Shown: positions 52,938 to 54,840 of the stretch, piece after piece | How the letters are laid out: each line of letters opens with the position of its first letter | Numbering within the stretch: the first letter of the stretch is position 1 | DNA from: the human T2T-CHM13v2.0 reference genome, Homo sapiens | Strand: one strand, 5' to 3' | Length of the DNA stretch: 64,000 bases | Assembly (NCBI RefSeq): GCF_009914755.1 | Contig: NC_060938.1 | The notes under the pieces: model-generated | What the model saw: the letters and a program-made list of their open reading frames with translations, nothing else | Told to the model about the DNA's origin: nothing | Database searches by the model: none | Made by a program: the position numbers and the translations under genes

Positions 52938-53954
52938 TTACATTTTGGCATGATTTTGCAGCGGCTGGTACCGGTTGTTCCTTTCCATGTTTAGTGCTTC
53001 CTTCAGGAGCTCTTTTAGGGCAGGCCTGGTGGTGACAAAATCTCTCAGCATTTGCTTGTCTATAAAGTATTTTATTTCTCCTTCACTTATGAAGCTTAGT
53101 TTGGCTGGATATGAAATTCTGGGTTGAAAATTCTTTTCTTTAAGAATGTTGAATATTGGCCCCCACTCTCTTCTGGCTTGTAGGGTTTCTGCCGAGAGAT
53201 CCGCTGTTAGTCTGATGGGCTTTCCTTTGAGGGTAACCCGACCTTTCTCTCTGGCTGCCCTTAACATTTTTTCCTTCATTTCAACTTTGGTGAATCTGAC
53301 AATTATGTGTCTTGGAGTTGCTCTTCTCGAGGAGTATCTTTGTGGCGTTCTCTGTATTTCCTGAATCTGAACGTTGGCCTGCCTTGCTAGATTGGGGAAG
53401 TTCTCCTGGATAATATCCTGCAGAGTGTTTTCCAACTTGGTTCCATTCTCCACATCACTTTCAGGTACACCAATCAGATGTAGATTTGGTCTTTTCACAT
53501 AGTCCCATATTTCTTGGAGGCTTTGCTCATTTCTTTTTATTCTTTTTTCTCTAAACTTCCCTTCTCGCTTCATTTCATTCATTTCATCTTCCATTGCTGA
53601 TACCCTTTCTTCCAGTTGATCGCATCGGCTCCTGAGGCTTCTGCATTCTTCACGTAGTTCTGGAGCCTTGGTTTTCAGCTCCATCAGCTCCTTTAAGCAC
53701 TTCTCTGTATTGGTTATTCTAGTTATACATTCTTCTAAATTTTTTTCAAAGTTTTCAACTTCTTTGCCTTTGGTTTGAATGTCCTCCCGTAGCTCAGAGT
53801 AATTTGATCGTCTGAAGCCTTCTTCTCTCAGCTCGTCAAAATCATTCTCCATCCAGCTTTGTTCTGTTGCTGGTGAGGAACTGCGTTCCTTTGGAGGAGG
53901 AGAGGCGCTCTGCGTTTTAGAGTTTCCAGTTTTTCTGTTCTGTTTTTTCCCCAT
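52938..53954 (-). CDS. L1 ORF1p, open 338-aa frame
   Basis: MGKKQNRKTG...QNHAKM, 1017 nt. The ORF-track start at 53963 is a TTG created by the inversion junction. Differences from the recalled active L1HS sequence include R98P and R159H. Confidence 0.93.
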   Translation of the reverse strand: MGKKQNRKTGNSKTQSASPPPKERSSSPATEQSWMENDFDELREEGFRRSNYSELREDIQTKGKEVENFEKNLEECITRITNTEKCLKELMELKTKAPELREECRSLRSRCDQLEERVSAMEDEMNEMKREGKFREKRIKRNEQSLQEIWDYVKRPNLHLIGVPESDVENGTKLENTLQDIIQENFPNLARQANVQIQEIQRTPQRYSSRRATPRHIIVRFTKVEMKEKMLRAAREKGRVTLKGKPIRLTADLSAETLQARREWGPIFNILKEKNFQPRISYPAKLSFISEGEIKYFIDKQMLRDFVTTRPALKELLKEALNMERNNRYQPLQNHAKM

Positions 53955-53958
53955 CTTT

Positions 53959-54840
53959 GCCAAGATGGCCGAATAGGAACAGCTCCGGTCTACAGCTCCC
54001 AGCGTGAGCGACGCAGAAGACGGGTGATTTCTGCATTTCCATCTGAGGTACCGGGTTCATCTCACTAGGGAGTGCCAGACAGTGGGCGCAGGCCAGTGTG
54101 TGCGCGCACCGTGCGCGAGCCGAAGCAGGGCGAGGCATTGCCTCACCTGGGAAGCGCAAGGGGTCAGGGAGTTCCCTTTCCGAGTCAAAGAAAGGGGTGA
54201 CGGACGCACCTGGAAAATCGGGTCACTCCCACCCGAATATTGCGCTTTTCAGACCGGCTTAAGAAACGGCGCACCACGAGACTATATCCCACACCTGGCT
54301 CAGAGGGTCCTACGCCCACGGAATCTCGCTGATTGCTAGCACAGCAGTCTGAGATCAAACTGCAAGGCGGCAACGAGGCTGGGGGAGGGGCGCCCGCCAT
54401 TGCCCAGGCTTGCTTAGGTAAACAAAGCAGCCGGGAAGCTCGAACTGGGTGGAGCCCACCACAGCTCAAGGAGGCCTGCCTGCCTCTGTAGGCTCCACCT
54501 CTGGGGGCAGGGCACAGACAAACAAAAAGACAGCAGTAACCTCTGCAGACTTAAGTGTCCCTGTCTGACAGCTTTGAAGAGAGCAGTGGTTCTCCCAGCA
54601 CGCAGCTGGAGATCTGAGGACGGGCAGACTGCCTCCTCAAGTGGGTCCCTGACCCCTGACCCCCAAGCAGCCTAACTGGGAGGCACCCCCCAGCAGGGGC
54701 ACACTGACACCTCACACGGCAGGGTATTCCAACAGACCTGCAGCTGAGGGTCCTGTCTGTTAGAAGGAAAACTAACAACCAGAAAGGACATCTACACTGA
54801 AAACCCATCTGTACATCACCATCATCAAAGACCAAAAGTA
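53959..54840 (+). promoter_or_regulatory. Inverted L1 5'UTR: sense promoter facing +, antisense promoter facing -
   Basis: Starts GCCAAGATGGCCGAATAGGAACAGC (YY1 site 53961-53970 intact, first ~9 nt missing) and ends ...AAAGACCAAAAGTA. CpG-rich. Confidence 0.9.
54185..54400 (-). CDS. L1 ORF0 (71 aa), intact
   Basis: MAGAPPPASLPPCSLISDCC...RCVRHPFL, 71 aa, lying antisense to the 5'UTR. Because of the inversion it is now co-directional with ORF1/ORF2. Confidence 0.85.
   Translation of the reverse strand: MAGAPPPASLPPCSLISDCCASNQRDSVGVGPSEPGVGYSLVVRRFLSRSEKRNIRVGVTRFSRCVRHPFL

What the first reader, a model, noticed from the sequence alone, without database searches (positions are those of the whole stretch)
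52938..54840. Promoter-swapped L1HS: inversion of the whole 5'UTR puts the antisense promoter and ORF0 upstream of ORF1-ORF2
Seen: the 5'UTR from about nt 10 to 890 is flipped, the break falls 4-5 nt before the ORF1 ATG, only ~10 nt (GATAAAACCA) are lost there, and one TSD pair brackets everything. Known: twin priming gives this geometry, but such insertions are usually also heavily 5'-truncated. Inference: on the minus strand the order is now ASP > ORF0 (71 aa, intact) > ORF1 > ORF2 > polyA. This is a naturally rewired, potentially tricistronic unit, antisense to NRXN3. Caveat: ORF0 and a junction-spanning out-of-frame uORF (ATG 54138 to stop 53917) should suppress ORF1 translation.
Basis: partly seen in the sequence, partly recalled or inferred. 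Interest (0 to 1): 0.85.

Follow-up and report, generated by a model that had tools for sequence, protein, structure and literature searches.

The report
Twin-primed L1 with flipped promoter
A young human L1 retrotransposon in an NRXN3 intron was inserted with its whole promoter region back to front, a rare outcome of a well-understood insertion accident, and because its ORF2 is cut short it is a curiosity rather than a working new unit.

Summary
The described geometry is real. A 6.1-kb L1HS-type element lies on the minus strand (window 48743-54839) between a perfect 18-bp target-site duplication. L1 positions ~10-892 (the 5'UTR) are inverted, 8-9 nt are missing, and the sense part resumes 4-6 nt before the ORF1 ATG. 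Short microhomologies sit at the flank/L1 boundary (2 nt) and at the inversion junction (1-2 nt). This is the signature of twin priming, here with the internally primed cDNA reaching almost the RNA 5' end. On the minus strand the order is antisense promoter region > ORF0 (71 aa, open) > junction > ORF1 (338 aa, open) > ORF2 > poly(A).

- ORF2 has an in-frame TGA at codon 890, so it ends after the RT domain.
- ORF1 carries two near-private substitutions (P98, H159). Residue 159 is one of two residues changed in a double mutant reported to impair retrotransposition.
- The stronger sense promoter now points outward, in the NRXN3 sense direction.

The junction 30-mer is unique in this genome, so there are no progeny. 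No RNA evidence could be consulted. Verdict: a new member of a known kind, a near-full-length 5'-inverted L1. It is non-autonomous and of modest interest, mainly as a uniquely mappable single-locus reporter of antisense-promoter activity.

The parts
48725..48742 (.). Target-site duplication, copy next to the poly(A) end
   Evidence: Perfect 18-nt direct repeat with 54840-54857.
48743..48840 (-). A-rich 3' tail. It has an A run, a (TAAA)-type microsatellite, an 8-nt non-A block (48761-48768) and a pure run of 18 A next to the TSD.
   Evidence: Read directly. The only other exact genomic match to the 21-mer spanning the non-A block is not beside an L1.
48841..49046 (-). L1 3'UTR. The diagnostic trinucleotide reads ACG.
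   Evidence: ACA is the Ta-defining state (PMC7026601 passages). That ACG marks pre-Ta L1HS is recalled.
49047..52874 (-). ORF2 frame of 1275 codons, interrupted by an in-frame TGA at 50205-50207 (codon 890). The N-terminal 889 aa keep the EN and RT domains.
   Evidence: Pfam Exo_endo_phos at 11-230 and RVT_1 at 517-773; no family matched the 385 aa after the stop.
52875..52937 (-). 63-nt inter-ORF spacer
   Evidence: Coordinates. The length matches the 63-bp spacer described in PMC5860796.
52938..53954 (-). ORF1, 338 aa open frame, with P98 and H159 nearly private to this copy
   Evidence: Pfam trimerisation, RBD-like and dsRBD-like domains. 28 of 29 nearest copies have R at each position.
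53955..53960 (-). Last 4-6 nt of the sense-oriented 5'UTR and the inversion junction (53959/53960), with 1-2 nt of microhomology
53959..54841 (+). Inverted 5'UTR (L1 nt ~10-892), now in sense orientation on the plus strand. It holds the complete YY1 box (53961-53971) and the sense promoter, which points out of the element into the NRXN3 intron.
   Evidence: YY1 box sequence and its role from PMC2912911 and PMC4908685.
54185..54400 (-). ORF0, 71 aa open frame, now on the same strand as ORF1 and upstream of it
54300..54560 (-). Approximate antisense-promoter region. L1 nt ~350-600 are mapped onto the window by the offset, and the published primary start site at ~nt 400 corresponds to about 54349.
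   Evidence: Position inferred from PMC4908685 section 7. No private substitution falls in this stretch. No activity data.
53917..54138 (-). Junction-spanning upstream ORF (73 aa). Three further in-frame ATGs (54060, 54042, 54036) use the same frame, which is out of frame with ORF1 and ends 37 nt past the ORF1 ATG.
54840..54857 (.). Target-site duplication, copy next to the inverted 5'UTR. Its last two bases (54841-54840) also match L1, giving a 2-nt primer/RNA microhomology.

Best explanation
This is a single L1HS-type retrotransposition event resolved by twin priming.

Shown:
- The bottom-strand nick primed reverse transcription from the poly(A) tail, and that cDNA stops at about L1 nt 901.
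- The 3' end of the second (top-strand) nick paired through 2 nt with the L1 RNA at about nt 891-892. It primed a second cDNA that ran almost to the RNA 5' end (nt ~10, past the complete YY1 box).
- The two cDNAs were joined through 1-2 nt of microhomology, with 8-9 nt lost.
- The product is a 6.1-kb element with exactly the 5'UTR inverted.
- ORF2 stops at codon 890.

Inferred:
- The copy is not autonomous. The sense promoter is uncoupled from the ORFs, ORF2 is cut short, and ORF1 has two unusual substitutions.
- When the locus is unmethylated, the antisense promoter would transcribe ORF0, the junction, ORF1 and truncated ORF2 to the L1 poly(A) signal.
- ORF1 translation from that RNA would be damped by the overlapping upstream ORF.
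- The orphaned sense promoter would transcribe outward along the NRXN3 sense strand.
- The most likely biological effect is none beyond that of an ordinary intronic L1.
For: - TSD and tail: a single perfect 18-bp TSD brackets the whole element, and poly(A) is present at one end only.
- Segments: the inverted and sense segments are contiguous and non-overlapping in L1 coordinates (L006 610-1492 against 1501 onward), with an 8-nt gap.
- Orientation: the L1 base next to the TSD is the internal one (~892), and the 5'-most base (~10) lies at the inner junction, as twin priming predicts.
- Microhomology: 2 nt at the TSD/L1 boundary and 1-2 nt at the inversion junction. In Kojima 2010 only 28 of 605 5'-inverted L1s lacked 5' microhomology and about 70% had 2-5 bp (PMC2912911 passages).
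- One source RNA: both segments are 99.3% identical to the same canonical copy.
- No recombination substrate: none of the 5 inverted-repeat pairs found in 53800-55000 lies at the breakpoints.
- Frequency of the mechanism: 5' inversion is seen in 344 of 1120 human-specific L1s and in 165 of 897 germline polymorphic L1s (PMC12016303).
- Non-autonomy: ORF2 has a TGA at codon 890, and ORF1 has P98 and H159 against R in 28 of 29 copies each. A N157A/R159A double mutant is reported to impair retrotransposition (PMC2951350 passage).
- No propagation: the junction 30-mer with up to 3 mismatches has 1 hit in the genome, the gapped junction pattern has 1 hit, and of 40 scored BLAST matches only the locus itself spans the junction.
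Against: - No sequencing reads, population data or other assemblies could be examined. An assembly artefact or a later rearrangement is therefore excluded only by the neatness of the hallmarks.
- An internally primed cDNA that reaches the 5' end is unusual. PMC12016303 reports twin-priming breakpoints spread over the 3' part of L1. I could not count how many such near-full-length inverted copies exist.
- Against 'inert': the flipped 5'UTR is barely decayed. It has 38 CpG against 41 in L006, and its only 3 private substitutions all lie outside the ORF0 and antisense-promoter stretch. ORF0 and ORF1 are open, so transcription and some translation remain possible.
- The effect of the two ORF1 substitutions is untested. 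The published mutant is a double alanine change, not H159.
Confidence: 0.88

Rival explanations
1. The element is a functionally rewired unit in which the antisense promoter drives an RNA that expresses ORF0, ORF1 and ORF2.
For: - The order on the minus strand is as claimed.
- ORF0 and ORF1 are open.
- The antisense-promoter stretch carries no private substitution.
- L1HS antisense starts map within the first 600 bp of the 5'UTR, with the primary site near nt 400 (PMC4908685 section 7). Such RNAs would run through the junction into ORF1.
- The ORF1 ATG keeps A at -3 and G at +4.
Against: - ORF2 stops at codon 890, so the unit is at most ORF0 + ORF1 + a truncated ORF2.
- Four upstream ATGs in one frame overlap the ORF1 start.
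- If the primary start is near nt 400 it lies downstream of the ORF0 ATG (nt ~451), so many transcripts would lack a complete ORF0 (inference).
- The antisense promoter is described as the weaker one (PMC4859970 legend).
- No progeny carry the junction.
- RefSeq lists no transcript or functional element here (hub annotation).
- No RNA data could be examined.
Confidence: 0.1
2. The main consequence is on the other strand. The orphaned sense promoter, now oriented like NRXN3 and lying about 33 kb downstream of the exon at 19279-20437, acts as an alternative intronic start for NRXN3-sense or chimeric transcripts.
For: - The flipped 5'UTR retains the complete YY1 box at 53961-53971 and 38 CpGs.
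- The GAG|GT donor, at the position of the documented 5'UTR splice donor near nt 97, is present on the plus strand at 54045-54049 (donor described in PMC5860796).
- The first AATAAA/ATTAAA on the plus strand comes only at 55336, about 480 nt past the element.
Against: - No annotated transcript starts here (hub annotation).
- NRXN3 has 0 occurrences in the main text of three L1-transcript surveys. Their supplementary tables could not be opened.
- The sequence upstream of the normal start is now ORF1 antisense, which may alter initiation.
- Young intronic L1s are usually methylated (established knowledge, not tested).
Confidence: 0.05
3. A standard full-length insertion whose 5'UTR was inverted later by a DNA rearrangement.
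For: An inversion of exactly nt 1-892 would give the same order of segments.
Against: - One breakpoint would have to fall by chance within 0-2 nt of the TSD/L1 boundary.
- There are no inverted repeats at the breakpoints.
- Loss of ~9 nt at the L1 5' end and of 8-9 nt at nt ~893-900, with microhomology at both joints, is what twin priming predicts.
Confidence: 0.03
4. An assembly artefact in T2T-CHM13.
For: None found. Young L1s are hard to assemble in general.
Against: - The junction is clean, with insertion-type hallmarks.
- Both parts are equally similar to other copies.
- A misjoin would not create a matching 18-bp TSD around the composite.
Confidence: 0.02

Closest known systems
5'-inverted (twin-primed) L1 insertions. 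Ostertag & Kazazian 2001 is recalled, not held. Kojima 2010 (PMC2912911) and PMC12016303 were read in passages.
   Same: Single TSD pair, a single poly(A), an inverted 5' segment contiguous with the sense 3' segment, a small gap at the inversion point, and microhomology at both joints.
   Different: The internal priming site lies just upstream of ORF1, and the second cDNA reaches the complete YY1 box. The total is therefore full length (6.1 kb) and exactly the 5'UTR is flipped. Published breakpoints are described as spread over the 3' part of L1.
L1 antisense-promoter / ORF0 chimeric transcript loci. Criscione 2016 (PMC4908685) was read. Speek 2001 and Denli 2015 are recalled.
   Same: The same promoter and ORF0 sequence, which would transcribe whatever lies beyond the L1 5' end.
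   Different: What lies beyond the 5' end here is the element's own ORF1-ORF2 in sense orientation, not a host gene. No RNA evidence exists for this locus.
SpIREs, full-length-derived L1 copies with crippled promoters (Larson 2018, PMC5860796)
   Same: A by-product of one retrotransposition round that keeps the ORFs but loses normal sense-promoter drive. The authors call SpIREs evolutionary dead ends.
   Different: SpIREs delete promoter sequence by splicing. This element keeps all of it but inverts it.

Membership tests
Twin-primed (5'-inverted) L1 insertion | One TSD pair flanking the composite, with poly(A) only at the sense 3' end | tested here: met
   18-bp perfect TSD at 48725-48742 and 54840-54857. 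The A-tail lies at 48743-48840 only.
Twin-primed (5'-inverted) L1 insertion | Inverted and sense segments adjacent in L1 coordinates with a small gap or overlap; the internal L1 position abuts the TSD | tested here: met
   L006 1492->610 inverted and 1501-> sense, with an 8-nt gap.
Twin-primed (5'-inverted) L1 insertion | Microhomology at the 5' junction and at the inversion junction | tested here: met
   2 nt at 54841-54840 and 1-2 nt at 53960-53959. Frequencies in PMC2912911.
Twin-primed (5'-inverted) L1 insertion | Endonuclease-type first-strand cleavage site (T-rich / A) | tested here: inconclusive
   Read, the bottom strand at the TSD boundary is TTCT/AAG. This is T/C-rich followed by A, but it is not one of the three motifs counted in PMC12016303 (TTTT/A, TTTT/G, TTTC/A).
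L1HS (L1PA1) subfamily | Near-identity to other young full-length copies, and the 3'UTR diagnostic trinucleotide | tested here: met
   ORF1 differs by 3-4 of 1017 nt from each of 29 copies. The 5'UTR is 97.7-99.3% identical to 28 copies. The best non-self match over 4078 nt of ORF2-3'UTR is listed at 99%. The trinucleotide is ACG. ACA is Ta; ACG as pre-Ta is recalled, so the sub-lineage call is not independently tested.
Retrotransposition-competent L1 | Intact ORF2 (about 1275 aa) | tested here: not met
   In-frame TGA at codon 890.
Retrotransposition-competent L1 | Sense promoter upstream of ORF1, in the same orientation | tested here: not met
   The 5'UTR is inverted.
Retrotransposition-competent L1 | Functional ORF1p | tested here: inconclusive
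   338-aa open frame with all three Pfam domains, but P98 and H159 differ from 28 of 29 copies each.
L1 antisense-promoter transcript locus | Capped RNA starting in the 5'UTR antisense strand | not testable with these tools
   No expression data are available. The sequence of the region is intact.

The most novel reading that the evidence does not exclude
In cells where young L1s are unmethylated, this locus is transcribed from both orphaned promoters. The antisense promoter makes a polyadenylated RNA that carries ORF0, ORF1 and a truncated ORF2 and yields some ORF1p (P98/H159 variant). The outward-facing sense promoter makes NRXN3-sense transcripts inside the intron that follows the exon at 19279-20437. 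Because the junction 30-mer is unique in the genome, this would be a natural, uniquely mappable read-out of antisense-promoter activity at one locus, and a natural test of whether that promoter can support L1 protein expression.
Probability: 0.15. Interest if true: 0.5.

Novelty: new member of a known kind. Interest (0 to 1): 0.27.

Why it matters
Mechanism: this is a clean textbook-grade example of twin priming in which the second cDNA ran to the RNA 5' end. It shows that internal priming can occur as far upstream as the ORF1 start.

Practical use: the unique junction lets short or long reads be assigned to this one locus. Antisense-promoter activity of a young L1 could therefore be measured without multi-mapping ambiguity.

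Limits: the copy does not reveal a new kind of element. With a truncated ORF2 and no progeny, it is unlikely to matter for L1 propagation. Any effect on NRXN3 is untested.

Tried and rejected
(1) Genome-wide scan for other copies with ORF0 upstream of ORF1 on one strand.
- Only a narrow pattern could be run: the inverted 5' end within 0-11 nt of the ORF1 start. It found this locus alone.
- The frequency of near-full-length inverted L1s in this genome therefore remains uncounted.

(2) Source element via the 3' tail.
- The 21-mer spanning the non-A block has one other exact match (C4:174471973), which is not beside an L1.
- No source was identified, and a short 3' transduction is neither shown nor excluded.

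(3) Is the ORF2 stop private?
- The 31-mer containing the TGA occurs at 96 places in the genome, so the variant recurs among L1 copies.
- By my comparison of the coordinates, none of the other 95 places falls within the 35 best non-self matches to this element's ORF2-3'UTR.

(4) Junction hairpin.
- The junction forms a 7-bp stem that includes the ORF1 AUG.
- The 56-nt fold is -15 kcal/mol with z = -1.6, and 15 of 200 shuffles fold as well. This is not significant.

(5) In-frame ORF0-ORF1 splice fusion.
- The two CAG|GT-type candidate donors inside ORF0 are in phases 1 and 2.
- The documented ORF1 acceptor opens in phase 0 (acceptor from PMC5860796), so no simple in-frame fusion is predicted.
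- I do not know which GTs are the published ORF0 donors, so this is inconclusive.

(6) Literature for this locus.
- NRXN3 + L1HS gave 2 papers. The passage I read concerns a different, 5'-truncated somatic insertion.
- NRXN3 + LINE-1 + 'chimeric transcript' gave 1 review (listing only).
- NRXN3 is absent from the main text of PMC10619931, PMC4908685 and PMC9396940.
- Searches on twin priming with antisense promoter or full-length (listings only, apart from the papers cited) showed no title or abstract about a promoter-swapped L1.

(7) Sources that were unavailable.
- Ostertag & Kazazian 2001 and Speek 2001 are not held.
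Full report
**Anatomy**

On the minus strand the window holds a 6.1-kb L1 (48743-54839) between a perfect 18-nt direct repeat at 48725-48742 and 54840-54857. That repeat is the only 100%-identical pair among four direct-repeat families found in 48600-55000.

Reading the minus strand from the high-coordinate TSD, the parts are:
- the reverse complement of the L1 5'UTR;
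- a junction at 53959/53960;
- 4-6 nt of sense 5'UTR;
- ORF1 (53954-52938, 338 aa);
- a 63-nt spacer;
- the ORF2 frame (52874-49047);
- the 3'UTR;
- an A-rich tail.

**Check against a canonical copy**

A junction-spanning 121-nt query against the window's own genome returned 40 scored matches (of 923 first-look candidates), and only the locus itself covers the whole query. The others match one half or the other.

One of them, L006, is an ordinary full-length copy. The window aligns to it in two blocks:
- 54841->53959 to L006 1492->610, inverted, 883 nt, 6 mismatches;
- 53960->52400 to L006 1501->3061, sense, 1561 nt, 11 mismatches.

L006 position 610 lies 9-11 nt inside that copy's 5' end, and its ORF1 ATG is at 1507. 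It follows that:
- L1 nt ~10-892 are inverted.
- L006 1493-1500 (8 nt) are absent. This becomes 9 nt if the source had the upstream variant seen in all 29 nearest ORF1 copies.
- The last two TSD bases also match L1.
- One or two bases at the inner junction could belong to either segment.
- The inverted part includes the complete YY1 box, which Kojima used to define full-length copies (PMC2912911 passage).

**Origin**

Every feature is what twin priming predicts:
- one TSD pair and one poly(A);
- the internal L1 position abutting the TSD;
- the 5'-most position at the inner junction;
- a small gap between the two cDNAs;
- microhomology at both joints.

Kojima reports 5' inversion in 344 of 1120 human-specific L1s. 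Only 28 of 605 5'-inverted copies had no 5' microhomology, and about 70% had 2-5 bp. A long-read study reports 5' inversion in 165 of 897 germline and 328 of 1495 somatic L1 insertions, with gaps or overlaps between the two cDNAs and breakpoints spread over the 3' part of L1 (PMC12016303 passages).

The unusual point here is only where the second primer annealed (just upstream of ORF1) and that its cDNA ran to the RNA 5' end.

The rivals are weak:
- A later inversion would need a breakpoint at the TSD/L1 boundary by chance, and none of the 5 inverted-repeat pairs in 53800-55000 lies at the breakpoints.
- A fold-back copy would duplicate sequence, whereas the two segments do not overlap.
- An assembly misjoin would not create a TSD around the composite.
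- Reads and other genomes could not be examined.

**Age and subfamily**

- ORF1 differs by 3-4 of 1017 nt from each of the 29 nearest copies.
- The 5'UTR is 97.7-99.3% identical to 28 of them. The 29th aligned over only 261 nt and was set aside.
- The best non-self match over 4078 nt of ORF2-3'UTR is listed at 99%, with 7233 bits against 7355 for self.
- The 3'UTR trinucleotide is ACG. ACA defines Ta (PMC7026601). That ACG marks pre-Ta L1HS is recalled.

**Coding state**

- ORF0 is an open 71-aa frame. This agrees with the ~70-aa ORF0 with two splice donors described in reviews (PMC4859970 and PMC13517631 passages).
- ORF1 is open and has all three Pfam ORF1 domains. It has P at 98 and H at 159, where 28 of 29 nearest copies each have R. 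One other copy shares P98 and another shares H159.
- Residue 159 lies in the RRM. A N157A/R159A double mutant is reported to impair retrotransposition and ORF1 foci (PMC2951350 passage). The effect of H159 itself is unknown.
- ORF2 has one in-frame TGA at codon 890 (50205-50207). The 889-aa product keeps the endonuclease and RT domains, and the 385 residues beyond the stop match no Pfam family.
- The same 31-mer with the TGA occurs at 96 genomic places. By my comparison of coordinates, none lies within the 35 best non-self matches. The stop therefore recurs among L1 copies but is not shared with this element's nearest relatives.

**Promoters**

The flipped 5'UTR has 38 CpG against 41 in L006. 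Its only three positions that differ from all 28 compared copies are at L1 nt ~670, 716 and 849, outside ORF0 and the antisense-promoter stretch.

Criscione et al. place L1HS antisense starts within the first 600 bp. They give a primary site near nt 400 and YY1 sites at 13-21 and 448-453 (PMC4908685 section 7, read in full). Mapped onto the window, the primary start is near 54349. This is downstream of the ORF0 ATG (54400), so many antisense transcripts would not carry a full ORF0.

Such RNA would cross the junction and meet four upstream ATGs (54138, 54060, 54042, 54036) in one frame that ends at 53917. That frame overlaps the ORF1 ATG, which itself has A at -3 and G at +4. A 7-bp hairpin formed by the junction includes the ORF1 AUG but is not exceptional (z = -1.6).

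On the other strand, the sense promoter now faces out of the element in the NRXN3 sense direction. The donor motif at the documented 5'UTR donor position is present at 54045-54049, and the first poly(A) hexamer follows at 55336. All of this is inference. No expression data could be consulted, and RefSeq lists no transcript here.

**Propagation**

The junction 30-mer with up to 3 mismatches has one genomic hit. A gapped pattern allowing 0-11 nt between the inverted 5' end and the ORF1 start also has one hit. There are no progeny or duplicates in this genome.

**Comparison and novelty**

The element is a member of the known class of 5'-inverted, twin-primed L1 insertions. It fails two tested criteria for a retrotransposition-competent L1: an intact ORF2 and a sense promoter upstream of ORF1.

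It resembles SpIREs in being a promoter-crippled dead-end product (PMC5860796). It resembles antisense-promoter chimeric loci in what the antisense promoter would read into.

My searches found no paper describing this locus or a promoter-swapped L1 (main-text checks).

**Verdict**

- The novelty grade is a new member of a known kind.
- Interest is modest. The value lies in a clean mechanistic example and a uniquely mappable junction.

Noticed in passing
window 19279-20437 (+): The RefSeq 'exon of other transcripts' is GC-rich (0.66 at 19000-19499). It holds an ATG-initiated frame from 20191 that runs past the exon end, with a hydrophobic stretch, a Ser-rich run and a His-rich run. From memory this looks like the beta-neurexin-specific first exon. 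If so, the L1 lies about 33 kb into the first intron of the NRXN3-beta transcripts. The identification is recalled and was not tested.
   Followed up: partly
window 48743-48840 (-): The 3' tail is composite. It has a short A run, a (TAAA)-type microsatellite, an 8-nt non-A block (48761-48768) and then 18 pure A next to the TSD. It could be a very short 3' transduction or a decayed tail. The only other exact genomic match to the 21-mer is not beside an L1.
   Followed up: partly
window 50189-50219 (-), and 95 other places in G000: The exact 31-mer carrying the in-frame TGA of ORF2 codon 890 occurs at 96 places in the genome (58 forward, 38 reverse). This stop therefore recurs, or is inherited, among other L1 copies. 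Which subfamilies carry it was not examined.
   Followed up: no
L040 (G000:C5:13354233-13355249) and L044 (G000:C4:81447444-81448460): Among the 29 nearest ORF1 copies, L040 alone shares P98 and L044 alone shares H159 with this element. Neither shares its three private 5'UTR positions. Common descent versus parallel change was not resolved.
   Followed up: no
window 53945-53972: The ORF1 start context and the YY1 box share a 7-nt word, so the inversion junction creates a perfect 7-bp inverted repeat with a 4-nt loop that includes the ORF1 ATG. The fold is not better than shuffles (15 of 200 fold as well).
   Followed up: yes
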